Origin: an uncultured virus (IMG/VR IMGVR_UViG_2645728113_000006)
Taxonomy: Duplodnaviria; Heunggongvirae; Uroviricota; Caudoviricetes
Direction: 5' to 3' (one strand)
IMG/VR virus record: IMGVR_UViG_2645728113_000006
DNA length: 64,000 nt
Positions within the stretch are counted from its first letter, which is position 1. Each line of letters starts with the position of its first letter. Under the pieces are notes generated by a model. That model was not told the origin of the DNA. It saw nothing but the letters and a program-made list of their open reading frames with translations, and did no database searches. A program made the position numbers and the translations under genes. Of this stretch, positions 2,446 through 58,324 are shown piece by piece.

Positions 2446-2465
2446 TTACTTTACCTATCAATAGC

Positions 2466-3844: not shown

Positions 3845-3846
3845 AG

Positions 3847-7970: not shown

Positions 7971-8075
7971 GGTGCCCATGGGGCATCTCCATGCAGGCAC
8001 AGGGATCTCCGGCTGGCATGATTTAGATTTTTGGGATATTGATTTGCACTCAGCAAAAACCTGACGGTGACTGCG

Positions 8076-8261: not shown

Positions 8262-8319
8262 TATGGGGTATCTGTGTTCGCCTCGGCACTATGGTCGGGA
8301 CGGCTGAAGGGGGATTTCG

Positions 8320-8571
8320 TTGAAAAGGACTATCGATTTGCTCAAGGATCCAGAAGTGCGTGGTGCAACTTTGGAAGCATTCGAGGCGGCGATCGAGATT
8401 GTGACCTCGATCATTTCTTCGTCTAACAGATCGCAGCAACATGATTTAGTCGATGGTGCAGTTCCTTATGGCCCTCAAAAGAAAAATGGCGGCCATAATC
8501 ATAAGTACAACAAGGGCGAGGATAGAACTCCAGCCCAGAAAGCTGCGGACATCGGACGCAAAAAGCCATGA
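8320..8571 (+). CDS. Hypothetical accessory protein with basic C-terminus
   Basis: GAAGGGGG RBS, TTG start. Confidence 0.5.
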   Translation: MKRTIDLLKDPEVRGATLEAFEAAIEIVTSIISSSNRSQQHDLVDGAVPYGPQKKNGGHNHKYNKGEDRTPAQKAADIGRKKP

Positions 8572-8786
8572 TGCTTTTCCAGCCAACGTGATCATACCGA
8601 TGCGCTATAGACCATCGTGACGGCTGGCGGCTATCTGGTTTGGGTTGGGGTATTACGAGTTACCGGCACAAGGCCGGATCGGAGAGGCGGTTTTGTCAGT
8701 GGAGCTTCAATATTCGGCTCAGAAATATAACGATAAAAAGTATATGTTTGAGATTGAAGTCCGATTTTTTTTGCAGAGGCCAGAAA

Positions 8787-9845: not shown

Positions 9846-9853
9846 TCTTCTTT

Positions 9854-9883
9854 ATAAGTTAGGGTGGATACACCCTAACTTAT
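9854..9883. terminator. Perfect 13 bp inverted repeat between convergent genes
   Basis: ATAAGTTAGGGTG-GATA-CACCCTAACTTAT. Confidence 0.7.
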
Positions 9884-9934
9884 CTCCAGTCAGGCGCCGC
9901 CCTCCGTGATATCGGATGCAGCGAGTAGGGTGGG

Positions 9935-10942
9935 TTATGCGGCGGCGCGCTTGAGCTGCTCGGTAAGCTGAGTTGGCAGCCTGCGTAACATCAGAGTGCC
10001 GCCAGCTTCGTCGAACTCGATCTTGTCGCCCAAAAGGTGCGCTTCGAAGCTGATCGACATGCCTTCGGCCCGACCAGTGAAGCGCCGGAATTTGTTGAGG
10101 GTCTTCTTGTCCGGTGGCAGGGTCTCGGAAAGGCCGTAGTCCTTCGCCTTGATGAAGTCGTAGAAGTTCTTCGGACGGTCTTCATCGATCAGGCCCGACA
10201 GTTCGTCGAGGGTAATCGTCTCGCCCAACTTGGCCTGGGCCATCGAGTAGCTGACCAGCGTGTGGGTCTTCTCGCGGGCCGCATCTTCGACCATGTCCTC
10301 GCTTTCTACGAAGTCACTGAACGCCTTCAGCAGCGTGCGGGTTTCGCCCGGCGCGTCGATTCCTTCCTGGCAGCCGATGAAGTCACGGAAATAATCGTTG
10401 AGCTTCCGGCCCTGCTTGCCCTTGAGGTACGAAATGTACTGTTTCGACTGCTTGTTGGTCTGCCATTCACTGATGTTGATGCGTGCGGCCAGACGGATAT
10501 GGTCCAGATCCAGGCGCTTCACCGTCATCAGGGCCAGCTCTTCGGTCATGGTCACCGCTTCTGTTTCCTGCACAAGGGCGATGGCAAGGTATTCGGTCAT
10601 ACCTTGCTGGTAGTGGCAGAAGAGGGCGTGCCCGCCAGTGGTGAGGTTTGATTCTTCCATCATCTGGGTCAGGTGTTCGACGGCGGTGGTGCTGAACGAC
10701 AGGAAGTCGGTAGCGCCGGCCATGTACTTGCCTAGCCAGCCGCTGAATGGGTAAGCGCCTGACTCTTGGTGGAAGAAGCCCCAGCCCTTGCCTGCGGTGG
10801 CGTTGTAGCTTTCGTTGAGCTGGCCCATCAGGTCGTCGCGGGCTTGGCTATCTACCTGCTCGGATGCGCCCAGAAACAGCACGGCCGGACTGCCGTCGGG
10901 CTTCTTGTCGATCTTGTGGATGACGCTATGGCGTACAGGCAT
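9935..10942 (-). CDS. Nucleoid-associated protein NdpA/YejK family, phage copy
   Basis: [17 protein letters not shown]...YFRDFIGC family signature. Confidence 0.9.
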
Positions 10943-11051
10943 TTCGTTTACCTCGGGTAAGCGCCGCCCTCCGTGTCCGGTGGTGGCAAATTGGTTTGGG
11001 TTGGGGTATTGATGGGCGGCCCGGCATGGAGCCGGATCAAGGAGCTAAAAA

Positions 11052-11372
11052 ATGTATGCAGGTGAAGTGTCCGTCGACTCGATGAAAGCATTCGGAATTG
11101 CCATCGATACAAGGCATGGCAAAGCAAGCGAGTTAGCGGAGATGCTTAGTTTCTGCGCTGCTATTGAAAAAACCGGATTAAAGAATCGGGTTATTAGTCT
11201 GTTCTATGATTCCAACAGCTGCTGCTGCACATTCGAGTTGTGCCCCTCAGTTGAAGAATTCGACGAGGTCGCTGAAGGCATCAAGCGTGCAGCTTTAAAA
11301 ACGATCGGTCAGTTTGAATGGTTTGGCACCATCAACCATGGAGCCCCGATTGAAGCTGATCTGGAGCTATAA
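11052..11372 (+). CDS. Hypothetical accessory protein
   Basis: AAGGAG RBS; follows a boundary repeat. Confidence 0.7.
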   Translation: MYAGEVSVDSMKAFGIAIDTRHGKASELAEMLSFCAAIEKTGLKNRVISLFYDSNSCCCTFELCPSVEEFDEVAEGIKRAALKTIGQFEWFGTINHGAPIEADLEL

Positions 11373-11682
11373 CTTCGTCACCTGGGTCGCGCCTAATCTC
11401 GGCCAAGCTTTGATTTCTGAATTCCAGCGCCACGTTTTCGTCAATCAGGATTTCGTGGCGCGGATAGCTCAAGAAGGCCGCGAGCTCTTCGTCGGTCATT
11501 AAGTCCATCTTCATGATGGCGATCTGCATGACCTCGCTGATGATCGGCACCTGGCCGCGCAGCCGAATACGTTCCATGGCCTGCTCGATGCCAGGCCTTA
11601 CTTTGTGCCGCAACTCCTTCTCGGCTACGGCCTGGCGTTTTTGCGCGGCTTTGGCCGATCTTTCCTGAACAGTCTTTGCCAT
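11332..11682 (-). CDS. Phage early hypothetical protein
   Basis: GAGG RBS; operon orientation. Confidence 0.7.
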   Translation of the reverse strand: MAKTVQERSAKAAQKRQAVAEKELRHKVRPGIEQAMERIRLRGQVPIISEVMQIAIMKMDLMTDEELAAFLSYPRHEILIDENVALEFRNQSLAEIRRDPGDEVIAPDQLQSGLHG

Positions 11683-11794
11683 GGCCTACCTCTTCTATTC
11701 CGCTGGCAGGCAGTGCGAGCCAGGTCAGCAGGTGACTCGGATGTTAATGTGGCGCTGGCAATGAGAGCAGCCTCAGCCAGCGCGCGACAGATCG

Positions 11795-12571
11795 TTAGGC
11801 TGTAGGCCTTACCCGGAAGGCCAGCAACACTGGGCCGAATGGGAAGGTACTGACTTCCAGCTCATCTAATGGGTTGAGCGTGCGTGTGCGCCCACCAGCG
11901 TTGCTGTAGATCGTATGGCTGCTCGATACTGCGATGTTGACCTTGCCTGCGGCTGCTTGGATCAGAGTGACCTTGAACCCTTCAGTCACATCGTCACCGA
12001 TCGTAAGCGTGACGTCTGTGTCGCTAATGACCAGGATCGACTTACCTGAATCCGCCATGGTCAGTGACCTGCTACCAGTGATAGATACATTGGGGTGCAC
12101 ATGCCCACCGGCGTGGTAGCTGACCATCCTGGGGTCGGCGAAGACACGGGCGAAGGAACCGACATAATTGACACTGGCGCGCATGTCATCGAATTGCTCG
12201 ACCACATAGGTACCGACGCTGCCGGAGACTTCTCCGTCGGGGTCCAAAACCCATTTGCGTCCTACCATCAGCCCGATCTGGGTGTTGGCACGTACACCGG
12301 CACGCATCTCTTCGAGAAACAGTTGACTGATCTGGCCGCCGCCTTTGCCTTGGGCATAGGTAAATCGTGCAATGGAGTGGCTGTCACCCGTAGGGCTGCC
12401 CTGGGAAGTATCGACCTGGTAGTCGACAAAGTCCGCCGAGACGATGGTGGTCGTAGTGTTGGCGTTAGGCGCCCAAGTGAAATCCAAGACCCTTCCGGTT
12501 TTAACCTGTTCTAGCGAGGTGGTGGTCTGAGAGGTAGTGGTGGAGCCTGACTGCTTCAAATCATCGTTCAT
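11795..12571 (-). CDS. Hypothetical protein with tail-fibre-like beta-rich C-terminal domain
   Basis: Long ORF; AAGGA RBS before ATG 12571; SLTMADSGKSI...VTLT...GFKVTLIQAAAGKV pattern. Confidence 0.65.
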   Translation of the reverse strand: MNDDLKQSGSTTTSQTTTSLEQVKTGRVLDFTWAPNANTTTTIVSADFVDYQVDTSQGSPTGDSHSIARFTYAQGKGGGQISQLFLEEMRAGVRANTQIGLMVGRKWVLDPDGEVSGSVGTYVVEQFDDMRASVNYVGSFARVFADPRMVSYHAGGHVHPNVSITGSRSLTMADSGKSILVISDTDVTLTIGDDVTEGFKVTLIQAAAGKVNIAVSSSHTIYSNAGGRTRTLNPLDELEVSTFPFGPVLLAFRVRPTA

Positions 12572-12674
12572 GTTACTCATCCTTAAGTGGAGTGCGTGTT
12601 TGAGTGCGGGCCGAAATGGCCCGAAGCGAATGACCGCCGTCATATCGCCACTTTTCCTACAGAACCATAGTGCT

Positions 12675-13238
12675 TCACTTGATTCGTATGGTGCTGTCGC
12701 CGCGCTCCAGGTGAGCCCAGGCTGGTTCGGGTAAAAGATCGTGCTCCGCATCCTCACCGGCCGCCATACTCTTTCTTACGGCTGCGTTGTGATCTCGGAT
12801 TTCCTTGAGCTTGGTCGCGATAGCACGCTTGTCGGGAGAGAACACTGTTTTGGTGTCGATGAAGTCATCCGGGATATCGTCCTCTTTATCGACGATGACC
12901 TTTTCAGGTGCCAGAGCCAAAGTGATCGTGAACAAGGGGCGCCTGATCGTCTTGATATCGGCGGCCTCCATGTTATTGCGCAGGTACTCGTCGAGCTTGC
13001 CGACGGTATTCTTCCGGATGCGCTTGAGCTCGTTCAGCCGATCAACCTCTTTTTCGATTGCGTCGATATCTCCCTGGATGTTCAGACTCAACATGACAAC
13101 GCTTTCCGCTTTGTCGCTGAACTCACCTTGAATCTCTTCCATGGCGTGCTGCAAAGCTTCTTTCAGGCCTTCGTCATCGGTGTCGGCCATCGCTTGTAGT
13201 TCGGCGAGCTTGCCGGTGAGGGTGTAGAGCTGGGTCAT
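12675..13238 (-). CDS. Siphovirus Gp157 family protein
   Basis: MTQLYTLT start, coiled coil, IPDDF..., HLERG..IRIK end; follows the annealase. Confidence 0.85.
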   Translation of the reverse strand: MTQLYTLTGKLAELQAMADTDDEGLKEALQHAMEEIQGEFSDKAESVVMLSLNIQGDIDAIEKEVDRLNELKRIRKNTVGKLDEYLRNNMEAADIKTIRRPLFTITLALAPEKVIVDKEDDIPDDFIDTKTVFSPDKRAIATKLKEIRDHNAAVRKSMAAGEDAEHDLLPEPAWAHLERGDSTIRIK

Positions 13239-13960
13239 GCTGCAGCCTCCTTATCGGCGTCGGTGATTCGCTTCCATTCCAGCGAGACGCGCTCGGCACC
13301 CTTGGTGTCTTTGCGTAGGGTTAGTTTGCGCACCGCCACGTCATGGATCTTTTTCAGTTCCTGAGGAGACTGGGCACTGGCCATCGTGTCGATGACTGAT
13401 TTGATGTAGTCCAGGCGTTCCTGCTGTTGGCGAGCTTTCTCGGCTTCTTGATCTTCAGCTTGCTCGATCAGTTCTTCATCCTTCAGCTGGTTGACGTACT
13501 CGGCGTCGTCAAACATCCCAAGGAACACGTCGGCACTGAAGCCGAGCATTGATAGTGATTTCTTGATGGCATCGGTGAGCGACTTCTTTGGCGCCTCGCC
13601 ATCGGTAGTCGTGCCGAACTTCGACTTGTAGAGGTAGCGCGTGCAGCCGTACTGCTCTATCTCGCCGCGTTTGCCATCCAACTCAAACCAGAAGCGGATC
13701 TTGATGGTGTGGTTCAGTTCGCGACCCAATACCAGGCGCTTGTCTCCTTCACCGCTGACCATTTCAGCGCCTTCGTCGAAGCGCTCCTCAATAACTGACC
13801 AACCGAACCCGATCCCTACAGGGCCGAACACTTCGGTCGCCTTCATGATCATCGCGGTACCGTTCAGACTGGTGATCTTCTGACCGCCAACCTCGGCAGG
13901 TTTTGTATAGCGGGTATCGGTCGTGCAGACCTTTTCCCAAATCTGCATGTTCGTCGACAT
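13235..13960 (-). CDS. Single-strand annealing recombinase (Rad52/Sak-like)
   Basis: ATEVFGPVGIGFGW and KKSLTDAIKKSLSMLGFSADVF motifs. Confidence 0.7.
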   Translation of the reverse strand: MSTNMQIWEKVCTTDTRYTKPAEVGGQKITSLNGTAMIMKATEVFGPVGIGFGWSVIEERFDEGAEMVSGEGDKRLVLGRELNHTIKIRFWFELDGKRGEIEQYGCTRYLYKSKFGTTTDGEAPKKSLTDAIKKSLSMLGFSADVFLGMFDDAEYVNQLKDEELIEQAEDQEAEKARQQQERLDYIKSVIDTMASAQSPQELKKIHDVAVRKLTLRKDTKGAERVSLEWKRITDADKEAAA

Positions 13961-14037
13961 GAGAAGTCCTTGCCGCGATGATCGCAGCGTTCAAAGTGAC
14001 TGAGTGGATGGTGGAATTGAAGGGGGCGGGCGTAAGG

Positions 14038-14229
14038 TCAGCGCTGCTGCTGAACCCGATAGCGAAGTACCTGAAGCACTCGACCGCCGTAACCAGGTTC
14101 TGCGTACTGCTCAACTGGCGCACCGAAGAAGCCGCGGCGTTCGGCCAGGCTGTAGGCCTCGCGAAGGTTATGAGCGCTGATATCTTCGAGCTGCTCGTCG
14201 ATCAGTGATTTAACCGGTGCGGTAGTCAT
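14038..14229 (-). CDS. Phage hypothetical protein
   Basis: ATGA overlap with the upstream gene, AAGGAG RBS. Confidence 0.65.
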   Translation of the reverse strand: MTTAPVKSLIDEQLEDISAHNLREAYSLAERRGFFGAPVEQYAEPGYGGRVLQVLRYRVQQQR

Positions 14230-14417
14230 GCCTTCTCCTTACGCCGCCGGCTGACATCCAGGAGGCGTGCGCTATACCAATGAAATTCTTCTGCGTTGAT
14301 GGCGCCTGAGGTGAAGTGGCGCACGATCAAACCCTCAGCCAAGATCTCTTCGAGGGCGGGCTTATCTGGATCTTCAAGCGCAAACAGCGCTTTATCGATC
14401 TCAACGTAGGGGCTCAC
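14226..14417 (-). CDS. Phage hypothetical protein
   Basis: GTGA overlap coupling. Confidence 0.65.
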   Translation of the reverse strand: MSPYVEIDKALFALEDPDKPALEEILAEGLIVRHFTSGAINAEEFHWYSARLLDVSRRRKEKA

Positions 14418-14836
14418 AGTTCGTTGTCCTCGGCCTGGGCGATCAGAGCGTCATCAGCCAAAGGTTGAAGGAGGCGTTCGGCAATCTCGCCGAGCTTTCC
14501 CAGTGGATGGTCGCTCCGACCGAGTAGCTCCAGAGCTTCCGATTTCACCCTTGAGCCCGCCATCCCAGCGATCAGCAAGTAGCCCAGGGCTGGAGCGTCG
14601 ACGCCGCAGTCGGCAAGTAGGTTGTTGGCGTACTCATCGACAGCCAGTGCGAACTGGTAGGCCGTGACGCCTTGCTGTGGGTGCAGGTGGCGCTTGAACA
14701 CCACGCTGCCACCTCTGGCCAGCTCTTCGGCGGCGTTGTACAGCCATTCAGTGCGGGCCAATTGCTGAGAGGTTTCGCTCACCGGGGGCGGCAGTTGTTC
14801 GTCGTGCTCAAACTGAGCCTTGCGTAGTGCTGACAT
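14414..14836 (-). CDS. Phage hypothetical protein
   Basis: GGAGG RBS before ATG 14836. Confidence 0.7.
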   Translation of the reverse strand: MSALRKAQFEHDEQLPPPVSETSQQLARTEWLYNAAEELARGGSVVFKRHLHPQQGVTAYQFALAVDEYANNLLADCGVDAPALGYLLIAGMAGSRVKSEALELLGRSDHPLGKLGEIAERLLQPLADDALIAQAEDNEL

Positions 14837-15029
14837 GGTCGCCTCCAAAGTGGCGGGTTGTTCACCTATATTCGTAAACACTCATGCCTCCCGCTGGTTG
14901 CCGATGGGCGCGGGGAGGAGTGCTGACGGGTAGAGGCGCACAGGGGCATTAGCGTTTTGTCTTGGCAGCTAATATCATCCAAGCGCTGCATACATGGATG
15001 ATCATTACTTTCCCTATGGGGCTGCTTAA

Positions 15030-23151: not shown

Positions 23152-24129
23152 ATGCAATACACCGTCACGATTAACCAGGTGAAGGCGCTGGAGTGGGGGC
23201 TGAATTCTCAGCAGGCCCTGCTGTTTGCCTTCGTCTACGGCTGCCCGAGCTGGACCAAGCCAATCAAGACCGATGACGGGGTCTTCTTCGCGCTGAGCAA
23301 GGCAAAGATCACTGAGGAGCTGCCGCTGCTCACAGACAAGCCAGACACCGCTTACCGCATGCTGAAGGCCCTGGAAGAGGCCGGTTTGATTGAGCTTTCC
23401 AGCACTTCGAACATCACGCTTTTTCGCCTTACCGAGAAGGCCATCGAGTGGAACCAGAAGCTTGATGGGTCGGAAAAATATCCGACCCCACCAAAAAACA
23501 AAGGTCGGAAAAATATCCGATCTACCTCGGATAAATCTCCGAGCAAGGTCGGAAAAAAATCCGAGCAAGGGTCGGATAAATCTCCGACAAATCAGGATAC
23601 CAATCATCAGGGTACCAATCAGGACACCAGTCAGGACTTGCAGGACGCCACCGGCAAGCCGGCTCAGTCCCGCGGCTTGGTGCTGGTGGTTGACCGCACC
23701 GATACTCCCCGTGTCGAGATTCCCGCCGATATGCCGGGCCCCAAAGACCAGACCTGCAAAACCTTCAAGGTTTGGGCGAACTACGCCATGGCTTACCGCA
23801 AACGCTACAGCGCCTGGCCGGTGTGGAACGCCAAGGTCGGCGGCCAGCTCGGACAGTTGGTCGACCGACTCGGCGCCGATGTCGCCCACCACGTCGCTGC
23901 CCACTTCCTGAAAACCAGCGATGCCGCTGTGCTGCGCAAGTGCCACAGCCTCAACGAGCTGCTGGCCAACGCCGAGAGCTACCACACCCAGTGGGTGACC
24001 GGGCAGCGCATCAACGGCACCACTGCCCGCCAGATGGAACGGACTGAGGCAAACCACTCCGCAGCGGAGCAGGCCGCCCAGATGGTTTTGGCCAAACGCC
24101 AAGCAGGTGACCGCAATGAATACCTTTGA
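23152..24129 (+). CDS. Phage replication initiator (O-like)
   Basis: Winged-helix N-terminus, internal iterons, synteny. Confidence 0.8.
   Translation: MQYTVTINQVKALEWGLNSQQALLFAFVYGCPSWTKPIKTDDGVFFALSKAKITEELPLLTDKPDTAYRMLKALEEAGLIELSSTSNITLFRLTEKAIEWNQKLDGSEKYPTPPKNKGRKNIRSTSDKSPSKVGKKSEQGSDKSPTNQDTNHQGTNQDTSQDLQDATGKPAQSRGLVLVVDRTDTPRVEIPADMPGPKDQTCKTFKVWANYAMAYRKRYSAWPVWNAKVGGQLGQLVDRLGADVAHHVAAHFLKTSDAAVLRKCHSLNELLANAESYHTQWVTGQRINGTTARQMERTEANHSAAEQAAQMVLAKRQAGDRNEYL
23470..23587. repeat. Five palindromic iterons TCGGA-N6-TCCGA (replication origin)
   Basis: Copies start at 23470, 23505, 23527, 23549, 23572. Confidence 0.85.
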
Positions 24130-47515: not shown

Positions 47516-47588
47516 GTTGTATGCCTGAACAGTATCGACTCGTCACGACAATCTACTTATCCTAGATTATTTGATACGAGATCAAATC

Positions 47589-48395
47589 ATGTTGCCCGAG
47601 CCAAGGCTGGCGCTAAACGAACTACTCAAGGAGCGAACCCTGCTCTGGCATAAGATTGCTGAAAATCATTATGTTGACGAGTTTGAGGTTCGGCGACTTT
47701 TTAATAAGCTTGATCGGCTGATAACAGATCCCGGTGCCGAGTTCAGTATTGCACCAGCCGCTTTGCATGAGCAGGCATATCTTTACGCTTACCAAATGAA
47801 AACCTCTAACGCCCTGCGGTTGTTTGAAGATGCTCGCCGTGCGGGACTTGATGGGCTTGCCGTATCAATTTCTACGGCCCATGCTTTATATATTTGTGGC
47901 GAGGTCGAAATGTCCAGGGAAGAGATATTGCGTACTGACTATTCTGATGCGAATAACAGGGGGCTGTCAGGGCTGGCTGATACCTGCGTTCATACTGGCT
48001 TGCTGAAAATGGCCAGGGATCTTTACATTCGGTCTGGAAAACAGGGTGGCGAAGTAAGCACTCAAGTTTTGCGTGCGGCCGAAATAATGGACCAGATTGG
48101 CGCGACGGATGAACAAGTAATGCGCAGGATCGCGACGGCTGCAAAAATTATCAAGTCTATGTCTGCGCATCCGTTCATTGCATTTGACCTGTTCGCTATG
48201 CAGGGCGAGGGAATCCTCTACCGCTTCGTAGTGAATGGGAGTACTGAAAGGCTGGTCGAGATTGATATGGCAATTGATGAGGCATTAATCGCTGATTTCG
48301 ATGAGGAAATTGATGACGTATTGTCGATTGGGATTGCGCCTTATGAGTTCGGTTCGAATATGTTAGCTGCGGATGGTTATTATGTCGGTGTGTAG
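47589..48395 (+). CDS. Helical-repeat (TPR-like) accessory protein
   Basis: Long ORF overlapping the HEPN-like gene; atypical codon usage. Confidence 0.7.
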   Translation: MLPEPRLALNELLKERTLLWHKIAENHYVDEFEVRRLFNKLDRLITDPGAEFSIAPAALHEQAYLYAYQMKTSNALRLFEDARRAGLDGLAVSISTAHALYICGEVEMSREEILRTDYSDANNRGLSGLADTCVHTGLLKMARDLYIRSGKQGGEVSTQVLRAAEIMDQIGATDEQVMRRIATAAKIIKSMSAHPFIAFDLFAMQGEGILYRFVVNGSTERLVEIDMAIDEALIADFDEEIDDVLSIGIAPYEFGSNMLAADGYYVGV

Positions 48396-48759
48396 TGATG
48401 ATCTGTTGTTGTTAGCCGAGTCACTTATTGGAAGTAAGGATGAGGTTGGCAATCGTGCGAGCATAAGCAGAAGTTATTATGCACTGTACCATGAGGCTAC
48501 AATAGCCGCATCGGCGCTCTCTTTAAAAAGCAATCCAGATGTAAAAACAAGTCACGATAAATTAATTTCGCGCTTTACCGGTGCGACTAAAGGTCTTGCC
48601 TCAATTGGGCGCGGCATTCTCAAGCAAAAGCGATTGCGTGCAATGGCTGACTATGAGATCGGCTCAGATCTCAATGCGTCCGAGGCGAGGTTCCATTTGG
48701 CTACAAGCAAGCGGCTTGTAAGTGACTTGCGAAGGATCGCTGATCCTGCGAACTCTTAA
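48382..48759 (+). CDS. HEPN-like domain protein
   Basis: RASISRSYYALYH...SH..LI...R.MADY. Confidence 0.75.
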   Translation: MSVCSDDLLLLAESLIGSKDEVGNRASISRSYYALYHEATIAASALSLKSNPDVKTSHDKLISRFTGATKGLASIGRGILKQKRLRAMADYEIGSDLNASEARFHLATSKRLVSDLRRIADPANS

Positions 48760-49018
48760 GATCTTTGCTGGATCAGGTCTTGAACAGAGTTTTCCTGTTA
48801 TCCGCCACCCTGCTACAGTCCCGCCAAACCAAAGAGGGAACGACATGCGGATTTTTGCTGTGATGTGCGAGGACCATTGATGTGATGCTGTGTTAGAGCG
48901 CAAGAGACTTTGGCAGTTTTATATGGAAGAGCGAGAAATCGCGAGTAGCTCCTATTGATTGCTGGCGCTGATCATGGCCGAATGATAGCTTTCAACCGTA
49001 TTAATTTTTTTCCACGGA

Positions 49019-49894
49019 GTGGATGTGCCAGCCCTTATTCCCCAATTGGTCAATGCTGCACTCGATCCTCATACATCGGTTGCCAGCTTGCTAAGGCATG
49101 CGCTAGTAGCGGCAAATAGGCTTAGTCTCGTTGACCTGGCCGATTGGATGAGTTCGGAACTCAATGGCTACAAAACCGCTTCACTGCCGGAGTATAGAAA
49201 GCTCCGTGGCACTCTCATTTGTGAGCACGAATTTGGGGGGTGGATGCCTTTAGAGGTCACGCATGCGGCAACCCTTAATATGGTGTCTCAGCGACCGTTC
49301 TATCAGTCCATCCCGGAATTAGAGCGATTAACTAGCAGCGGCGGGCCTTTCGTCGTTTTTTTTCCTCCAAAGAATGAAGTTTACTTACGCTCATTAATGA
49401 GGCCACCGACTAGGCCGGCAGTGGAAATACAGGCGAGCCAGATATTTGGCCTAATAGAGCTAGTTCGTAGCAGAATATTACAGTGGGCACTAGACCTTGA
49501 GTCCAAAGGGGTTATGGGTGAAGGTATGTCGTTTACATTGCAGGAGCGTCAGATCGTGGCTGCACAGCACTACCATTTTGGCGATGTTACTGGATCTCAA
49601 ATTCAAATTGGCTCGAGTGGGTCGAATCAGTCCATCGCACCCGGTGACAGCACGGGAGCAATGAATGCGTTAATCAACCTGCTTCGTGATGTTCTAGCTC
49701 GGAACGAGATTGATGGCGATGTGGCTGCCGAGTTGGTTGCCGAGCTCAAGACTCTGGAAGCTCAAGCCGAATCACCACGGCCTAAGGCATCAATTATCAG
49801 AGAAACCGCGCTGAGTATTCAGAGGGTCTTAGAGGGGGTTGCCGGTAACGTATTAGCGACCGCCGCTCCATTGATTTATTCGCTGGTGAGTTGA
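49019..49894 (+). CDS. AbiTii-like domain protein
   Basis: LLRHALVAA.RL....W...ELNGY...LPEYRKLRG. Confidence 0.8.
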   Translation: MDVPALIPQLVNAALDPHTSVASLLRHALVAANRLSLVDLADWMSSELNGYKTASLPEYRKLRGTLICEHEFGGWMPLEVTHAATLNMVSQRPFYQSIPELERLTSSGGPFVVFFPPKNEVYLRSLMRPPTRPAVEIQASQIFGLIELVRSRILQWALDLESKGVMGEGMSFTLQERQIVAAQHYHFGDVTGSQIQIGSSGSNQSIAPGDSTGAMNALINLLRDVLARNEIDGDVAAELVAELKTLEAQAESPRPKASIIRETALSIQRVLEGVAGNVLATAAPLIYSLVS

Positions 49895-49926
49895 TGCCAG
49901 CCCAGTCCCGCGCTGGGCTTTTTGCT

Positions 49927-50475
49927 TTAAACATTCCGAGGAGTTCGCCGATCCTTGAGTACGGAATCTAGGTCTCGTGCTAATTGGTCGGCGAGAATTC
50001 CGAGGATTGTCCATATGGCCATTGAGCGGGTGCGGATGACAATCGCATGCGTCTCCTCATCCTCTCCTTCGGGCTCATAAGGCGTGAAATTCTTCTGATA
50101 CACGGCGAACCCGATCGGCTCGCTGATTTTGAAGAATTTTGCTAGCAGAGGCTGCAAGCGCACTGGTTCGTTTCGATGTCCTACCGCGTTGCGAAGGTTA
50201 TTTAGCGCCTTAATCGAATCCCATAGTTCAGGCTCCATAGCTGAACCCACGATTGCCCTGCAGAGCTCCGTAGCAGTGCCGAAAGTAAAAATATCGTTTC
50301 GGCTATAAGGGCGAGAGTATTGGGCTACCCCAGCGGCTATCAGATCATGCAATTGCTCCTCGACAATCATGTGGCCGCGTAGCACTGCCGACAGCAGTTC
50401 ACTGTCCCGTTCGAAGGTGCGATGAAACTGCGCGGTCTTCTTCTCGATGTCCTTTGCGAAAAGTTCTCTTTTCAT
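49927..50475 (-). CDS. HEPN/MtlR-like helical protein
   Basis: VLRGHMIVE and LNNLRNAVGH (Rx4H). Confidence 0.65.
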   Translation of the reverse strand: MKRELFAKDIEKKTAQFHRTFERDSELLSAVLRGHMIVEEQLHDLIAAGVAQYSRPYSRNDIFTFGTATELCRAIVGSAMEPELWDSIKALNNLRNAVGHRNEPVRLQPLLAKFFKISEPIGFAVYQKNFTPYEPEGEDEETHAIVIRTRSMAIWTILGILADQLARDLDSVLKDRRTPRNV

Positions 50476-50568: not shown

Positions 50569-51024
50569 TCATTGCGGCATCGGTGGCCAGCTTTTGGACT
50601 CTTCGACTACGTTGGCGATTACTTCTTCGATGGTTGTCTTTTCGCCGCGAGCCTCGGCATGAAAAAGATCAATTATTGCGTTGAGCATTATTTCCTGTGT
50701 GACGCCATGCTTCGCTGCTTCGCCTTGTAGATTTTCGATGGTGCTTTTCGGTAACGCTAGGACTAGGTCTTTCTTGCCCTCAGCGACTAGCGCCATTTCT
50801 AAAACCTCGGGCTGGTCATCAACATCCTGCAGTTTTTCCACTTCACAACCGAGTGCTTTAGAGAGCTTGACTAATGCGGTCATGCGAGGAACCGAGGTGC
50901 CCATCTCATACCGTCCTATTTGAGGAACGCTTAAGCCACTCGCCTTCGCAAGATCGCGCTGTGTCATTCCCGCGTCTGCGCGGAGGCGGACGAGCCGGGA
51001 AGGGAAGCCTTTCGGGTGGTACAT
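50569..51024 (-). CDS. XRE-family HTH regulator
   Basis: LVRLRADAGMTQRDLAKASGLSVPQIGRYE; alternative start at 51054. Confidence 0.88.
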   Translation of the reverse strand: MYHPKGFPSRLVRLRADAGMTQRDLAKASGLSVPQIGRYEMGTSVPRMTALVKLSKALGCEVEKLQDVDDQPEVLEMALVAEGKKDLVLALPKSTIENLQGEAAKHGVTQEIMLNAIIDLFHAEARGEKTTIEEVIANVVEESKSWPPMPQ

Positions 51025-51158
51025 GCTGATTCCATACTGTGGTGTGGAAAACATGATGTTCGCGAAACATTGTCAGCGCAAGAAGATGATGGCAAATGAT
51101 GTTGACTAGACGTCGTAAATGATGCGTAATGATGTCTAGTGATTGTTAAGGAGGTTTT

Positions 51159-51326
51159 ATGAGGTCGGAAAAATCGCGATACCCGCTCAGCTTGGAGGCA
51201 TCTGTGAAAGTGCAGGCAGAAGGTGAAGCAAAGAAAAATCGACGCAGTTTGAATGCCGAACTCGGACTGTTAATCGAGGAGGGACTGAAATGGAGGGAGC
51301 AAACGAGCAAGCAGGCAGTAGCCTAA
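51159..51326 (+). CDS. Arc-family ribbon-helix-helix repressor, 55 aa (not in ORF track)
   Basis: AAGGAGG RBS; ...EAKKNRRSLNAELGLLIEEGL. Confidence 0.82.
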   Translation: MRSEKSRYPLSLEASVKVQAEGEAKKNRRSLNAELGLLIEEGLKWREQTSKQAVA

Positions 51327-51394
51327 AACGAAGAAACCCCGGCTTGCAGGCCAGGGCTTCGGGTAACGAGATCAACTACCAGGAAGAAATCGTC

Positions 51395-52258
51395 ATGAGC
51401 GATATTAGCACAACCGTTTCGAATGTCATCCCGTTCAATTTCGGCAAGCAGCAGGTGCGTACGCTGCTGATTGATGATCAGCCGTGGTTCGTGGCTAACG
51501 ATGTTTCTGCTGCGCTTCAGTACAGCGAAGCGTCGGCGATGACTCGGCATTTGGACGACGATGAAAAGGGTCTGTCGATTGTGCAGACCCTTGGCGGCGA
51601 TCAGGAAATGCTGGTCATCAACGAGTCAGGCCTTTACTCGGCAATCCTGCGCAGCCGTAAGGCTGAAGCCAAACGCTTTAAGAAGTGGGTCACCGCTGAA
51701 GTCCTCCCGGCGATTCGCAAGCAGGGCAGCTACCAAGATTCCAGCAATAAAATGAAGGCGCTGATGGATGATCTGGTCGACATGACCGAGACGAATGCAC
51801 TGAAGGGCTTGGCGCGCCACAAGGTGGCACATCTTCCAGCCTCCATTCAGCGCAGTGCTTCCGCTCGTATTTATTCGGCAGTGCACACACGTTTCAACGT
51901 GCCGCGTCTTGAGCTTATCCCTGCAAGCCAGTTCGAGTCGGCGTGCAACTTCATCGCGGCCTACGCCGTTCTTGAGGGAGAGTTCATTCCGAAGGGGAAC
52001 GGCAAGCCATTCGACATCCCGGAGAAGCTTGGCCAGTGTGAGCGCTATCTCGTCAGCGCAGATCCTCACGGCAATCGGCAGGTCACGCCGGTGCCAATGG
52101 GGGCGTTCGTCCTGACTCGGCAGCAGTTCATGCAGTCAATGCTTGTTGATCGAGATATGCCAGTTTCCACAGCGGAGATGTTCGAGTTTGTAGCGCTGGC
52201 GACCGAAAACCTGCGCTACCGCTTTCTGTTCCAGGCTGCCCGGAGGGACGCAGCATGA
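51395..52258 (+). CDS. BRO-N antirepressor
   Basis: PWFVANDV; INESGLYSAILRSRKAEAKRFKKWVT.EVLP.IRK. Confidence 0.9.
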   Translation: MSDISTTVSNVIPFNFGKQQVRTLLIDDQPWFVANDVSAALQYSEASAMTRHLDDDEKGLSIVQTLGGDQEMLVINESGLYSAILRSRKAEAKRFKKWVTAEVLPAIRKQGSYQDSSNKMKALMDDLVDMTETNALKGLARHKVAHLPASIQRSASARIYSAVHTRFNVPRLELIPASQFESACNFIAAYAVLEGEFIPKGNGKPFDIPEKLGQCERYLVSADPHGNRQVTPVPMGAFVLTRQQFMQSMLVDRDMPVSTAEMFEFVALATENLRYRFLFQAARRDAA

Positions 52259-52830
52259 GCATGGAACTTGTCACACTAAAAATTACCGGCACGTCACCGC
52301 TGATGATGCACAGCGACAAGCTGGCCAACCCTTTGAATCCAGCAACAAAGGCTCACAAGGAATTGACCGGTAAGCGCAAGAAGACGGACGACGATCATCT
52401 TGCCATTGCTCGCTCTGAGTTTATCGCTGGTGCCTACCACGATGAAAAGCTTGGCTTTTTTGTGCCAGGTGCGAATTTCGATGCGACGTTCTTGGCTGGC
52501 GCGAAGCTCCAAAAGCTGGGCACTCAATGGAAGCGCGGAGCGGTTGTGATGACTGACAAGGCGAAGCTTGAGTTCTCTGGCCCGACAACGCCTGACTCTC
52601 TTTGGGAGGATCAGCGGTTCGTTGACTGCCGCGGAGTAAAAGTTGGTCAAGCCAAGATCATGCGATACCGCCCGATCTTTCTTGAGTGGGCCGTGGAGCT
52701 GGAAGTTGCAATCAACGCTGACGTACTCAACATCGAGGAAGCAAAAAAAGCGATCACTGATTCTGGCCTGTTGATTGGGGTCTGTGAATACAGACCGCGC
52801 TTCGGTCGCTTCGAGGTGGAATATGTCTGA
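52255..52830 (+). CDS. Stand-alone RAMP/Cas7-like protein (candidate guide-RNA effector)
   Basis: N-terminal strand ITGTSPLMMH, VPGANF, RYRP.F.EW, C-terminal Gly loop GLLIGVCEYRPRFGRFEV; fold inferred by eye. Confidence 0.7.
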   Translation: MSMELVTLKITGTSPLMMHSDKLANPLNPATKAHKELTGKRKKTDDDHLAIARSEFIAGAYHDEKLGFFVPGANFDATFLAGAKLQKLGTQWKRGAVVMTDKAKLEFSGPTTPDSLWEDQRFVDCRGVKVGQAKIMRYRPIFLEWAVELEVAINADVLNIEEAKKAITDSGLLIGVCEYRPRFGRFEVEYV

Positions 52831-53281
52831 GTTGACAAAGCACCCGAGCTATAAGCAAGCCGTTGAAGACTTCCTCAAGGAGTTCAAATACGGTGATTTG
52901 GTCGGACATGAATGGCTGGAGGCTCGTTTCGGCATGCCGTCAATGACCGATTCGAAGTCGCTGACTGTTGAGAAGTTTCGTGAGCGTCAGTTCGAGTGGC
53001 TGGCGAACGTCGAGGCATTCAAGTCGGACTTGCTCAAACATCATCAAGTCTGCCTTCAGTCAGTGCGCGGGCGTGGTTATCGATGGGTGCCGCCTCATGA
53101 GCAGACAGAAGTTGCGGTAACTGAGTTGGGCCGGAATGTCAGGAAGGCGTTTCGCGGGAGTGGAGAAAAGCTGAGAAATTTGAGGATTACGGAGCTTACC
53201 GATGATCAGCGACGGGCAAACCTTGACGCTGTTGCAAAGTTTTCCGCGCTCCAGGGCATGACTCGAAAGGCTCTTGGTTAA
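52823..53281 (+). CDS. Winged-helix-like accessory protein coupled to the RAMP-like gene
   Basis: 8 bp overlap; LQSVRGRGYRW wing-like motif; stop lies 3 bp before the array. Confidence 0.7.
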   Translation: MSELTKHPSYKQAVEDFLKEFKYGDLVGHEWLEARFGMPSMTDSKSLTVEKFRERQFEWLANVEAFKSDLLKHHQVCLQSVRGRGYRWVPPHEQTEVAVTELGRNVRKAFRGSGEKLRNLRITELTDDQRRANLDAVAKFSALQGMTRKALG

Positions 53282-53284
53282 TAG

Positions 53285-53556
53285 CAGCGTAATATCCTTT
53301 CTATGAGAGGGCATTGCGGTGCGAATGCATCATGTGGCGTGGCGAGACAAGGTTGGGCGAGGTCTGGTTAGGTCGGGCATGTCTAGGTGAGGGCTGACAA
53401 CAGCGTAATGCCGATTGGAATCAGTCGGCATTGCGGTGGCAGAAGCCGCTGGCAGGTTCTGGTCCGGCAAGTCGCGGCTAGGCCCGGCGGGGTGTGATTT
53501 GATTTGGTATGGGCTGATAACAGCGTAATGTCTCTTCTTGGAGGAGGCATTGCAGT
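53285..53556 (+). ncRNA. Candidate guide-RNA array: three structured repeats separated by two GGY-NN pentamer tracts
   Basis: CAGCGTAAT-hairpin-GCATTGC at 53285, 53401, 53521; 5 nt periodic tracts at 53336-53390 and 53451-53510. Confidence 0.8.
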
Positions 53557-53578: not shown

Positions 53579-53599
53579 GGCCCGCATTGCGGGCTTTCG
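53579..53599 (+). terminator. Terminator closing the array
   Basis: GGCCCGC-ATT-GCGGGCT followed by a short T run. Confidence 0.6.
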
Positions 53600-54101: not shown

Positions 54102-54701
54102 ATGTCAGCACTCGCAATTAATTATCAGCCGATGACTACCATCTTGCTTTATGGGCAGCTTAGGCAATTTGGAAGATCTTTCAGGTTGTCAGTTAAGTCC
54201 CCAGCCGAGGCTATCAAGGCGCTATGCGTACAGATCCCTGGCTTCGAGCGGTTCCTGTCGAACGCCAAGTCTCGCGGCATTGAGTTTGCCGTGTTTCGAG
54301 GGTCAAAAAATCTTGCAGAAAAAGAATTAGGATTTGGCGGTTCCGGAGAAATCCGTATAGCGCCTGTAATTACGGGCCGAAAGCGCGCAGGCCTGATGCA
54401 GACCATTTTGGGCGCCATATTGATTGTGGTAGGTTTTTTTGCTTTCGGGTCGACAACAACTACAGGCGCAGCGCTCATAGCGGGCGGTATCGGTAGTGCT
54501 GCTGGGGGCGTAATCCAAATGCTTAGTCCGCAGGCGGCAGGCCTCAAGATGAGCGCTGCGCCCGAAAACCAGCCTGGATATGCATTTGGCTCGGCGCAGA
54601 ACACAACTGCATCCGGCAACCCGGTCCCGCTCTGCTACGGCAAGCGCAGGGTCGGCGGGGCGATTATTAGCGCCGCGATATACGCCGAAGACCAGATGTA
54701 G
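54102..54701 (+). CDS. Tail assembly protein I
   Basis: SPAEAIKAL; YAFG..NT..GNPVPLCYG..GGAIISA. Confidence 0.9.
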   Translation: MSALAINYQPMTTILLYGQLRQFGRSFRLSVKSPAEAIKALCVQIPGFERFLSNAKSRGIEFAVFRGSKNLAEKELGFGGSGEIRIAPVITGRKRAGLMQTILGAILIVVGFFAFGSTTTTGAALIAGGIGSAAGGVIQMLSPQAAGLKMSAAPENQPGYAFGSAQNTTASGNPVPLCYGKRRVGGAIISAAIYAEDQM

Positions 54702-54760: not shown

Positions 54761-57700
54761 ATGGGCGCAGCACAAAAGATCGATATACACGGCGCCAAAG
54801 GCGGCGAAGGTAAACCAAAAACGCCGACTGAGGCCCCGGACAGTCTGCGCTCTGTTGCTATCGCAAAAATGCTCATTGCCGTGGGCGAGGGTGAGTTCGA
54901 GGGCACGCCAACTGCCAAAGACATCTATCTCGACAACACGCCCCTGCAAGACCCTCAAGGCAACATAAATTTCCCGAACGTGAAGTGGGAGTGGCGCACC
55001 GGTGCCGTGGACCAGAGCTATATCCAGGGCATCCCTTCGGTCGAGAACGAGACCACGATCAGTACCGAGCTGCGCAGCGGGACACCGTGGGTACGGGCCA
55101 TCAGCAATACCCAGCTTTCCGCTGTTCGCGTCCGTTTTGCGTGGCCTGTGCTTCAGTCCGTGGACTCTGGTGGCAACGTCAATGGCTACCGGATTGAATA
55201 CAAGGTTGAGCTGGCCACCGATGGCGGCGCCTATCAGCAGGTGCTGAGCGAGGCTGTCGACGGCAAGACCACCAGCCTGTACGAGCGCACGCGCCGTATC
55301 AATTTGCCGAAGGCCACTTCTGGTTGGCTGATGCGGATCACTCGCCTGACCGCGAATCAGAACAACAACAAAATCTCCGACACGATGCAAATTGCCGGCT
55401 TCACCGAGGTGATCGACGCGAAGATCCGCTACCCGAATACTGCGCTGCTTTACATCGAGTTCTCGGCCGAGCAGTTCCGCAGCATTCCTGCCGTTACCGT
55501 CGAGACCAAACTGAAGAAGATGCAGGTGCCGAGCAACTACGACCCAGTGTCGCGCACCTACTCGGGCGTCTGGGATGGCACGTTTAAGCAGGCTTGGACC
55601 GACAACGCGGTCTGGATGACCTACGACATCAGTACCGCCGACCGCTTCGGCCTGGGTCGCCGCATCAAGCCGTGGATGGTTGATATTTGGGAGTTGTATC
55701 GTATTTCCCAATACTGCGACCAGTTGGTGCCGGACGGGAAGGGGGGCCTGGAACCGCGCTTCATCTGCAACTTGAACCTGCAGAGCAAAGCCGATGCCTG
55801 GTCACTGCTGCGTGACATATCGGCGATCTACCGAGGCATGACCTACTGGGCCCAGGGCCAGGTCTTCACCCTGTCGGATATGCCGCGTGCCACTGACTTC
55901 GACTTCGCCTATACCAGGGCCAACGTCCTTGACGGTAAGTTCACCTACTCCAGCGCGTCGGAGCGTACCCGGTACACCCGGGCGCTGATCAGCTACGACA
56001 ACCCGCTGAACAACTACGACACCGATGTCACTGCTGTGACCGATGCAAAGCTCCAGCGGCGCTATGGTGACAATCCGCTGGAGATCAGCGCAATTGGTTG
56101 TACCCGCGAGTCCGAGGCCCAGCGCCGCGGCAAGTGGGCGCTGCTGACCAACTCCAAGGATCGGGCGGTTACCTTCAAGGTCGGCCTCGACGGTCGCATC
56201 CCGCTTCCTGGTTACGTGATCCCCATTGCTGACGAACTGCTTGCAGGTCGGCCGGTGGGTGGCCGTATCTCGGCGGTGAACGGAAAGGTCATCACCCTGG
56301 ACCGTGACACCCAGGCCAAGCCCGGCGACCGGTTGATCCTCAACTTGCCAGACGGCAAGTGCGAGGGGCGCACGGTGCAACTGGTCAGTGGCCGACAGGT
56401 CACCGTAACCCTGGCCTACTCCGTACCACCGGAGCGTGAACTAGTGTGGGCGCTGGACGCCGACGATCTGGCGATCCCGCTTTACCGGGTGGTCAGCGTG
56501 GCGCGGCCAGAGCCCGGCGTATTTGAAATCTCAGCCGTGCAGTACGACCCCAGCAAGTTCGATCACATCGACACCGGCGCCCGGTTGGAAGAGCGGCCTA
56601 TCAGCGTTGTACCGATCACCGTAGTTCCTGCCCCGACGAGCGTCGACATCACGTCGAACTACTCCGTGGACCAGGGCCTGGCAATCAGCACCATGAATAT
56701 CTCGTGGCCTGCTGTGGCTGGCGCAGTGGCTTATGACGTGGAGTGGCGCAAGGACAGCGGAAACTGGATCAAGCTGCAGCGCACCGGCTCTACCAGCGTT
56801 GACGTCACCGGCATTTACTCGGGCGCATATCTCGCCCGTGTTCGGTCGGTGAGCGCGTTCGAGATTTCGTCCATTTGGAAGAGCTCCAATCTGACCAACC
56901 TGGAAGGGAAGGTCGGCCTCCCGCCGGCCGTGGCGTTCCTGTCCACCACTAGCGAGCTGTTCGGCATTGGCATTCGCTGGGGTTTCCCGGCTGACGCCGA
57001 GGATACCCAGCGCACCGAGCTCTGGTATGGACAGGCTAATGATCTGTCGGTGGCGACCAAACTCGCAGACTTGGCGCACCCCCAAGCGAATTACAGCATG
57101 CAGGCCCTAAAGGCCGGCGCGCAGTTCTTCTTCTGGGCTCGCCTGGTCGACCGTACCGGTAACGTTGGCCCGTTCTATCCCGTCGGTAACGGCGTGATGG
57201 GGATGGCAAGTGCCGATGCGGCGCCGGTGCTGGATTTGATCGCCGGGCAGATTGGGCGTACGGAGCTGGGCAAGGACATCACGGACGAGATCGACAAGAT
57301 CCCAGGGCTGCAGGCGCAGATCGACGCGCTCGATGGGTTGTCCGCCTACGACCCGGAGTCGACCTACCTTGAGTTTGACCTAGTGGTGGTTGGTAAGCGG
57401 ATCTACCAGGCCACCGGCCCGGTACCCGTCGATACGCCACCACCGAATGCCAACTACTGGCAGGACGTGGGTCAGGCGGTGGTCACTGCCAATGGCCTTG
57501 CGCGTCAAGTTGAGATCAATACCACCAGCATCACCGAACTGGACGGGGTGGTCACGGCTCAGGCGTCAAGTCTTCAGGCGTTGCAATCGGCTTATCGGGA
57601 CGACACGGGGGAGGGGGATCTGGTTGATGCACTCCAGGGCTACAACGCCTCGGCGAGTTTCGCGCAGGAAGTGAAGACGCAGGCCACGAAGAACGCAGCC

Positions 57701-58324
57701 ATGGTGCAGCGGCAGACCGAACTTACTGCAGAGGTGGGCGACGTCGCCGGCACCGTAACTGATCTGGAAAGAGTTGTGGTCACTGATCGGGAGGCGACTG
57801 CCCAGGCCATCCAGCAGGTCGGCGTGAAGATCGGCGAAAACACGGCTGATATCCAGACCGTGAGCAAGGCCCAAGCAGACACAGACGGCAAGCTCTCAAC
57901 GATGTGGTCCGTGAAGATGCAGCTCAATGCGAATGGCCAGTACGTCGCGGCAGGCATCGGGCTTGGTATCGAGAACGTAGATGGTCAGTTGCAGAGCCAG
58001 TTCCTGGTGAGCGCCGACAGGTTCGCCGTGGTGAACAACATCAATGGCGTGCTTTCTACACCATTCACCGTGCAGAACGGCCAGGTGTTCATGCGATCTG
58101 CCTTCATCGAGGACGGCAGCATCTCGATGCTGAAGATCGGTGAGGCTCTGCAGTCCAACAACTACGTCGCTGGCGTTCAGGGGTGGCGTTTGGATAAGGC
58201 CGGGAACCTTGAGTTCAACGGTCCGGCACCTGGTGGTGGACGCCTGACGATGACCAATCGTGCGATCAAGGTGTACGACGAAAACAACGTCAAGCGGGTG
58301 CAGCTAGGGGATCTGACAGCATGA
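54761..58324 (+). CDS. Tail tip / host specificity protein J
   Basis: GAKGG start, YPNTAL, YCDQLVPDG, FN3 region, ADRFAV C-terminus. Confidence 0.93.
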   Translation: MGAAQKIDIHGAKGGEGKPKTPTEAPDSLRSVAIAKMLIAVGEGEFEGTPTAKDIYLDNTPLQDPQGNINFPNVKWEWRTGAVDQSYIQGIPSVENETTISTELRSGTPWVRAISNTQLSAVRVRFAWPVLQSVDSGGNVNGYRIEYKVELATDGGAYQQVLSEAVDGKTTSLYERTRRINLPKATSGWLMRITRLTANQNNNKISDTMQIAGFTEVIDAKIRYPNTALLYIEFSAEQFRSIPAVTVETKLKKMQVPSNYDPVSRTYSGVWDGTFKQAWTDNAVWMTYDISTADRFGLGRRIKPWMVDIWELYRISQYCDQLVPDGKGGLEPRFICNLNLQSKADAWSLLRDISAIYRGMTYWAQGQVFTLSDMPRATDFDFAYTRANVLDGKFTYSSASERTRYTRALISYDNPLNNYDTDVTAVTDAKLQRRYGDNPLEISAIGCTRESEAQRRGKWALLTNSKDRAVTFKVGLDGRIPLPGYVIPIADELLAGRPVGGRISAVNGKVITLDRDTQAKPGDRLILNLPDGKCEGRTVQLVSGRQVTVTLAYSVPPERELVWALDADDLAIPLYRVVSVARPEPGVFEISAVQYDPSKFDHIDTGARLEERPISVVPITVVPAPTSVDITSNYSVDQGLAISTMNISWPAVAGAVAYDVEWRKDSGNWIKLQRTGSTSVDVTGIYSGAYLARVRSVSAFEISSIWKSSNLTNLEGKVGLPPAVAFLSTTSELFGIGIRWGFPADAEDTQRTELWYGQANDLSVATKLADLAHPQANYSMQALKAGAQFFFWARLVDRTGNVGPFYPVGNGVMGMASADAAPVLDLIAGQIGRTELGKDITDEIDKIPGLQAQIDALDGLSAYDPESTYLEFDLVVVGKRIYQATGPVPVDTPPPNANYWQDVGQAVVTANGLARQVEINTTSITELDGVVTAQASSLQALQSAYRDDTGEGDLVDALQGYNASASFAQEVKTQATKNAAMVQRQTELTAEVGDVAGTVTDLERVVVTDREATAQAIQQVGVKIGENTADIQTVSKAQADTDGKLSTMWSVKMQLNANGQYVAAGIGLGIENVDGQLQSQFLVSADRFAVVNNINGVLSTPFTVQNGQVFMRSAFIEDGSISMLKIGEALQSNNYVAGVQGWRLDKAGNLEFNGPAPGGGRLTMTNRAIKVYDENNVKRVQLGDLTA

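What the first reader, a model, noticed from the sequence alone, without database searches (positions are those of the whole stretch)
53336..53390. Guide tract 1 encodes codon positions 1-2 of a tail-tip J motif (VDKWELYRI)
Pentamers ggcGT ggcGA gacAA ggtTG ggcGA ggtCT ggtTA ggtCG ggcAT give GTn GAn AAn TGn GAn CTn TAn CGn ATn. The prophage's J at 55679-55705 reads GTT GAT ATT TGG GAG TTG TAT CGT ATT (VDIWELYRI): 7/9 dinucleotides and 16/18 bases match, and the skipped base is always the wobble position. Hand estimate under uniform base composition: about 0.003 such hits expected over both strands of this window, before correcting for my choice of block and gap. Inference: a wobble-skipping guide is blind to most synonymous escape and so covers a whole phage clade. 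The last two pentamers (TA, GA) do not match.
Basis: partly seen in the sequence, partly recalled or inferred. Interest (0 to 1): 0.93.

Follow-up and report, generated by a model that had tools for sequence, protein, structure and literature searches.

The report
VIPR guide against rival tail gene
This repeat is a guide RNA of VIPR, a CRISPR-like gene silencer of phages described in 2026; it spells a conserved stretch of a tail gene of rival phages, and the phage that carries it has a rare altered copy of that stretch which probably protects it from its own weapon.

Summary
Tract 53336-53390 is a vrRNA guide of a type II VIPR cassette (Vipr 52255-52830 hits SUSP1 Vipr, E 1e-46). The wobble-skipping code and its blindness to synonymous escape are already published (Yoon 2026; Lopez 2026). 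The predicted target holds: 120 of 120 fetched perfect 18/18 hits lie in J; one shuffled order gave 3 hits. The missed second tract reads tail gene I antisense (122 of 123 hits). The addition concerns the carrier's own J, which is not the intended target. It has K-to-I plus CTN-to-TTG. In 401 genus genomes 105 of 107 sites keep K, and both I sites sit behind this guide. All 6 distinct K-to-I alleles with visible upstream DNA carry the guide, in four J backgrounds (one clade rejected, p 3e-9). A near-identical VIPR that swapped the guide has the perfect site. None of 26 related guides matches its own homologue at 17/18 or better. Best reading: guide plus escape patch, a PAM-free self/non-self device. 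Binding and silencing were not tested, and 16/18 may still bind. This scan noted VIPR self-avoidance on other DNA before.

The parts
52255..52830 (+). vipr gene (RAMP-like effector, 191 aa)
   Evidence: phmmer to SUSP1 Vipr, PDB 36pp, E 1.3e-46 over residues 3-190; phrog_4652
52823..53281 (+). accessory gene, vap1 position, overlapping the vipr stop
   Evidence: phrog_5926; same position behind vipr in relatives; homology to SUSP1 Vap1 not shown (one search found only Pseudomonas phages)
53276..53330 (+). leading tail-like hairpin without a guide in front
   Evidence: repeat family D6; fold z -3.0; kept in relatives
53333..53390 (+). guide tract 1 (11 full GGY/NN units); units 1-9 read tail-tip J codons VDKWELYRI, sense
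53391..53450 (+). 3' tail of vrRNA 1, long hairpin
   Evidence: -34.2 kcal/mol, z -6.3, 0 of 200 shuffles
53451..53510 (+). guide tract 2 (12 units); units 2-10 read tail assembly gene I codons NTPGYAFGS, antisense
53511..53556 (+). 3' tail of vrRNA 2, hairpin; terminator-like site follows at 53579-53595
   Evidence: z -4.2
54567..54592 (-). carrier's own counterpart of the guide-2 target in tail gene I (54102-54701): NQPGYAFGS with TCG serine, 14 of 18
55679..55705 (+). carrier's own counterpart of the guide-1 target in J (54761-58324): VDIWELYRI, K-to-I and TTG leucine, 16 of 18

Best explanation
A type II VIPR cassette (vipr, vap1, two vrRNAs) sits in the tail operon of a temperate Pseudomonas siphophage, between tail genes K and I. 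Shown here: the anatomy, the Vipr homology, and that the two guides spell conserved stretches of J and I found in many related prophages. Taken from the published SUSP1 and P. fulva work: Vipr coats the RNA, one subunit per GGY, the NN pairs bind the target DNA skipping every third base, and the bound complex blocks transcription without cutting and without a PAM. Inferred: guide 1 stops J expression in superinfecting or co-resident rival phages, so they make no tails. With no PAM, the carrier can only spare itself by changing read bases. At the J site it has done so with a substitution at a nearly invariant lysine (K to I) and a first-position silent switch (CTN to TTG); some carriers add I to V. 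This short patch is kept while the J sequence around it is exchanged by recombination, and it is absent where the guide has been replaced. At the gene I site the carrier instead holds an allele that also occurs without the guide.
For: Perfect targets: 120 of 120 in J; 83 of 107 sites in 95 of 401 genus genomes, backwards-pattern control 0 (counted by eye); shuffled order 3 hits. K is kept in 105 of those 107 sites; the 2 I sites are G000 and G076, both with vipr and the guide. In IMG/VR only 6 contigs have the K-to-I site; 5 are among the 7 contigs with the guide, the sixth is cut off upstream. The other 2 guide carriers have a distant J at 14 of 18. In metagenomes 2 of 24 hits to the I pattern lie in J, both with the guide. 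58 perfect J sites with 2.5 kb or more upstream show no vipr, vap or guide. L125 (Vipr 98% identical, guide replaced), L161, L164 and phage Medea1 are VIPR-positive with a perfect J site and no J guide found in the locus. The flanks of 6 K-to-I alleles need 4 changes on a 79-row tree; one clade rejected, p-AU 3e-9. 0 of 26 guides whose own homologue lies in the locus reach 17 of 18 on self. K is also present in the F2 pyocin and another distant J of the PDB.
Against: No binding, silencing or expression test for this locus. The own site still scores 16 of 18 (18 of 22 = 82%), above the 80% used as a target threshold in the discovery paper, and no mismatch-tolerance data were found: the word does not occur in the structure paper's main text. 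The K-to-I alleles share several derived bases, so they may stem from one mutation event moved by recombination; four backgrounds are not four origins. Five of the six carriers have near-identical cassettes. The 26-guide tally is conditional on a hit in a collection enriched for targets of guides 1 and 2. No perfect target lies in the host assembly itself. For guide 2 the mismatching allele occurs without the guide. The L163 and L131 guides each differ from the commonest target by one base.
Confidence: 0.72

Rival explanations
1. Same anti-rival guide, but the mismatches are not an adaptation: the guide could simply persist only on a lineage that already had a divergent J site.
For: This fits guide 2: Q at the T position occurs in 4 of 64 genus sites, 2 of them in genomes without vipr, and in L125 and L163, which lack guide 2. 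It also fits the two carriers with a distant J (L131, L160). The K-to-I alleles may have one origin.
Against: K to I was not seen once without the guide where the upstream DNA is visible. The site is the peak of divergence in 627 bases around it and differs from K alleles by about 8 bases, where K-K pairs of like flank distance differ by 2-3. The patch stays while the flanks change.
Confidence: 0.15
2. The guide is partly aimed at the carrier itself: weak binding to the 16/18 site damps leaky tail expression in the lysogen or tunes J dosage.
For: The own site is the best match in the whole assembly and no co-resident perfect target was found; 82% over the full guide.
Against: Self-regulation would be served by a perfect match, yet the guide tracks the rivals' consensus, and no guide of 48 with a strong hit matches its own locus. 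Some carriers add a third mismatch.
Confidence: 0.1
3. The match to J is chance.
For: The block of 9 units and the gap were chosen after seeing the sequence; full-length score is weaker (7 of 2000 shuffles).
Against: 120 of 120 perfect hits in J against 3 for a shuffled order; the same guide in cassettes with Vipr only 82-84% identical; guide 2 independently hits the neighbouring tail gene.
Confidence: 0.01

Closest known systems
Type II VIPR of Escherichia phage SUSP1 and of a Pseudomonas fulva prophage (bioRxiv 10.64898/2026.04.26.720920, whole text read; 10.64898/2026.04.26.720927, parts 1-2 of 6 and passages; PDB 36pp)
   Same: Vipr homologue, overlapping accessory gene, array of GGY/NN tracts each followed by a structured tail, one-base skip on the wobble position, targets on either strand, targets in other Pseudomonas prophages.
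   Different: Two guides downstream and none upstream of vipr. Both aim at tail structural genes that the carrier itself needs; the paper describes mostly lysis-lysogeny regulators for the P. fulva clade and a satellite for SUSP1 (its target table, data S3, and figure S15 were not visible to me and may list J). The own site scores 82%, whereas the paper found no self hit at 80% or more. Whether this Vipr falls in the paper's P. fulva clade (over 90% identity) was not tested.
Self-sparing vrRNAs of SUSP1-family phages (bioRxiv 10.64898/2026.10.15.759431, parts 1-3 of 8 and passages)
   Same: Guides match rivals better than self; wobble positions vary, read positions are conserved.
   Different: There the self comparison concerns guides aimed at other vrRNA loci. 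In the parts I read, no private amino-acid change in an essential gene of the carrier is described. Its supplementary tables were closed.
Class 1 CRISPR-Cas self/non-self discrimination (recalled)
   Same: RAMP filament on a guide RNA; self-targeting selected against.
   Different: CRISPR uses a PAM or repeat pairing and contiguous spacers; here there is no PAM, no cas1, and self is spared by mismatches in the target.

Membership tests
VIPR (type II) | Vipr protein, RAMP homologue with G-loop and thumb | tested here: met
   E 1.3e-46 to SUSP1 Vipr over 188 residues. By that alignment H17, K33, R138, C173 and R179 are kept; D177 and W178 are E and Y.
VIPR (type II) | vrRNA of 9-16 GGY/NN repeats | tested here: met
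   11 and 12 units; NN vary and GGY stay across 131 guides of 61 loci
VIPR (type II) | conserved structured 3' tail | tested here: met
   hairpins z -6.3 and -4.2; stems vary in sequence but stay paired by eye in relatives; pseudoknot not tested
VIPR (type II) | targets obey the one-base skip, on the wobble position | tested here: met
VIPR (type II) | vap1 accessory gene next to vipr | tested here: inconclusive
   gene in the expected place and conserved, but tblastn of phage records returned 3 Pseudomonas records and not SUSP1; fold not predicted
VIPR (type II) | vrRNAs expressed as about 100-nt RNAs bound by Vipr | tested here: inconclusive
   only assembled contigs were on hand; they cannot show strand, ends or level
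VIPR (type II) | DNA binding and transcriptional silencing | not testable with these tools
   needs an experiment
VIPR (type II) | no self target at 80% or more of NN bases | tested here: not met
   own J scores 18 of 22 (82%) on 11 units, 19 of 24 (79%) if the leading half-unit is counted; borderline, and a reported observation rather than a strict definition

The most novel reading that the evidence does not exclude
The guide and a 27-60-base escape patch in J form a linked, self-enforcing pair. The guide silences any phage with the standard site, including recombinants of the carrier itself, so the patch is held fixed while the rest of J is exchanged. Near-identical VIPR phages aim at each other's unpatched genes (window guide 1 fits L125's J 18 of 18; L125's guide fits the window's gene I end 17 of 18; L136's guide fits the window's vipr 18 of 18 while L136's vipr has a private variant). 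VIPR would then act as a kin-recognition system that drives amino-acid change at conserved sites of essential virion genes, with two mismatches enough for immunity.
Probability: 0.4. Interest if true: 0.72.

Novelty: new member of a known kind. Interest (0 to 1): 0.5.

Why it matters
VIPR needs no PAM, so how a carrier avoids silencing itself, and how many mismatches abolish binding, are open points that also decide its use as a tool. This locus supplies a natural series on one 27-base site (18, 17, 16, 15 and 14 of 18) with a tight guide-to-allele link, and a cultured phage (PseuP_222) that is a perfect match to the cores of both guides. It also shows the limit of the wobble-blind design: escape runs through six-codon amino acids and one tolerated substitution.

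Tried and rejected
1) Skips of 0, 2 and 3 bases: no site above 14 of 18 except the tract itself. 2) Guide 2 with units 1-9: 0 hits in IMG/VR; units 2-10 gave the target, so that block was chosen after a look at gene I. 3) Cytosine deamination on the displaced strand as the cause of the T-rich own J site: the site is the only 9-codon window of 1179 with six T-ending codons, but at the guide-2 site the displaced strand would be the other one and the changes run the same way on the coding strand, and other K-to-I alleles keep some C. Not supported. A general A/T shift at own sites is weak: 10 of 14 other sites, mean +0.06; 7 sites were skipped for a stop in the frame or flank. Left unexplained. 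4) A co-resident rival in the host: none at 2 mismatches or fewer besides the own site. 5) Expression: RNA run X15 has two contigs, both at the array, and X7 covers it, but these are contigs of relatives found with this stretch, without strand or ends; no weight given. 6) The guide pattern in genome contigs gave 5 hits, 4 of them chance without vipr or J; 22 of 24 metagenome hits to the K-to-I pattern were outside J. 7) Three K alleles with TTG leucine have no VIPR in 12 kb, so TTG alone is not a mark of the guide. 8) 66 of 114 distinct guides had no hit in the fetched loci, and 22 of the 48 with a hit had no own homologue inside the locus. 9) Literature: three searches returned four VIPR preprints; none of the parts read reports this J escape allele.

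Full report
Observation. The tract is as described. From 53336 the sequence falls into pentamers with NN = GT GA AA TG GA CT TA CG AT TA GA, followed by a conserved tail. With one skipped base the best site in the window is 55679 in the tail-tip gene J, 16 of 18 bases; 1 of 2000 shuffled orders does as well. It is also the best site in the 7.2-Mb assembly. Over all 11 units the score is 18 of 22 (7 of 2000 shuffles).

What it is. The gene at 52255-52830 matches the SUSP1 Vipr protein of the PDB at E 1.3e-46. An overlapping accessory gene follows, then three tail-like hairpins enclosing two GGY/NN tracts. This is the layout of a type II VIPR system (bioRxiv 10.64898/2026.04.26.720920, read whole). 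The cassette lies between tail genes K and I of a temperate siphophage with repressor, replication, head, tail and lysis modules; its closest named relatives are Pseudomonas phages. That paper already states the one-base skip, its fall on the wobble position and the protection against synonymous escape; 10.64898/2026.10.15.759431 measures the conservation of read against skipped bases on natural targets.

Target of guide 1. One shuffled order gave 3 hits, all the same non-J sequence; only one shuffle was run at this scale. In 401 genomes of the genus a relaxed pattern found 107 sites in 95 genomes, 0 for the backwards control; by my count of that table 83 are perfect, 17 have L to M, 3 have TTG leucine, 2 have AGG arginine and 2 have K to I (two of the 107 rows come from the unpublished G099 and G151). 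The units after the ninth are loose: unit 10 differs among carriers (TA, GA, GG, GC, TG), and across 131 guides the last unit is AT in 80 and matches the best target only half the time.

Units 2-10 of the second tract, read on the other strand, spell NTPGYAFGS of tail assembly gene I. The scan again hit its limit; 122 of 123 matches in 120 loci lie in gene I homologues, and 49 of 64 genus sites are perfect by my count. I chose this block after units 1-9 gave nothing. The cultured phage PseuP_222 matches the cores of both guides perfectly; phiAH14a scores 17 and 18.

The carrier's own J. The two mismatches are a K-to-I change and a CTN-to-TTG switch. K is kept in 105 of 107 genus sites and in the F2 pyocin J. 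K to I is tied to the guide. In IMG/VR 6 contigs have it, and 5 of them are among the 7 that carry the guide; the sixth ends before the array. In the genus sample the two I sites are G000 and G076, both among the 5 of 401 genomes with vipr (G099, unpublished, is one of the five) and both with the guide. In metagenomes the 2 hits in J, of 24, both have the guide. The two guide carriers without K to I have a distant J at 14 of 18. The reverse also holds: 58 perfect J sites with 2.5 kb upstream show no VIPR (these loci were picked by the guide-2 pattern), and VIPR-positive phages with other guides (L125, L161, L164, Medea1) have the perfect site. L125 is the telling case: Vipr 98% identical, guide replaced, J site at the consensus.

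History of the patch. Counted by distinct sequence there are 6 K-to-I alleles with full flanks. On a tree of 79 flank sequences (those at least 78% identical to the window's, of 162 distinct; the site itself left out) they need 4 changes, 0 of 200 bootstrap trees join them, and one clade is rejected (p-AU 3e-9). Yet they share derived bases, and the window and L123 are identical over 62 bases around the site while their flanks differ by 12.7%. The simplest reading is one or few origins, with the patch kept as the flanks recombine. These are four backgrounds, not four proven origins. For guide 2 the picture differs: the Q allele also occurs without the guide, so a standing variant suffices there.

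Generality. From 61 related loci I read 131 guides (114 distinct). 48 have a hit of 17 or 18 of 18 among the fetched loci, none in its own locus (three guides come from G099 and are not among the 26 below). For 26 the own homologue lies in the locus; it scores 12-16, never 17. Drawing at random from the fetched homologues would give about 12 self hits, about 6 without the J and I guides; the collection is enriched for targets and kin are not independent, so this is a tally and not a test. Some aims are mutual: L125's guide fits the end of the window's gene I at 17 of 18 while its own gene I ends differently, and L136's guide fits the window's vipr at 18 of 18 while L136's own vipr has a variant seen in no other fetched locus.

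Mechanism. Shown: anatomy, homology, targets, allele link. From the papers: filament assembly on GGY, gapped pairing, silencing without cutting or PAM. Inferred: rivals lose J and I expression; the carrier is spared by mismatches. The weak step is whether 16 of 18 is enough to escape: it lies above the 80% threshold of the discovery paper, which reported no self hits at that level, and I found no mismatch-tolerance data. The T-rich spelling of the own site is real but unexplained.

Novelty. The system and the code are known. Lower self than non-self scores are reported for vrRNA-targeting guides, and this scan noted VIPR self-avoidance on other genomes. What this locus adds is an unusually clean link between one guide and a private change at a conserved residue of an essential virion protein. 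I did not find it in three searches; the papers' target tables (data S3, supplementary tables of the October preprint) were not visible and could hold this guide. The fourth preprint (10.64898/2026.10.21.760802) I saw only as passages. Verdict: new member of a known kind, interest 0.5.

Noticed in passing
window 52342-52368 and about 54665-54700: The window's own vipr and the end of its gene I are near-perfect targets for guides of related phages (L136, 18 of 18; L125, 17 of 18).
   Followed up: partly
window 55679-55705: Only 9-codon window of 1179 in J with six T-ending codons and no C-ending one; cause unknown.
   Followed up: partly
window 47571-50475: Cargo between tail gene K and the VIPR cassette: a 274-aa and a 128-aa gene, an AbiTii-domain gene (PF18864, E 2e-36) and a 182-aa gene on the minus strand; possible anti-phage genes.
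   Followed up: no
window 50569-52258: An HTH repressor, an Arc-like gene and a Bro-N antirepressor precede vipr, the last overlapping its start; same order in phage Medea1. May couple VIPR to induction.
   Followed up: no
L427:5430-6600: The cultured phage Medea1 carries an unannotated VIPR cassette with one guide and a J site that fits window guide 1 perfectly.
   Followed up: partly
L129, L132, L139, L141, L143, L155, L162, L167, L281: Many related cassettes carry overlapping guides against one motif (QQGGQLKDMFGG-like) of a neighbouring gene, with own copies at 12-16 of 18 where visible; the gene was not identified.
   Followed up: no
L143, L148, L155 about 7090-7240: Very long tracts (17-29 units) with internal repeats of the NN series; perhaps duplication during guide formation.
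   Followed up: no
related loci L128-L170: The last vrRNA of many arrays has a different tail start (GGGCC instead of GGGCT).
   Followed up: no
window 23501-23637: 22-base tandem repeats inside the replication initiator gene, likely origin iterons.
   Followed up: no
G000 contigs C3, C5, C6: The assembly holds the same sequences on three contigs and is rated 9% contaminated; window 1-14892 lies off contig C52.
   Followed up: no
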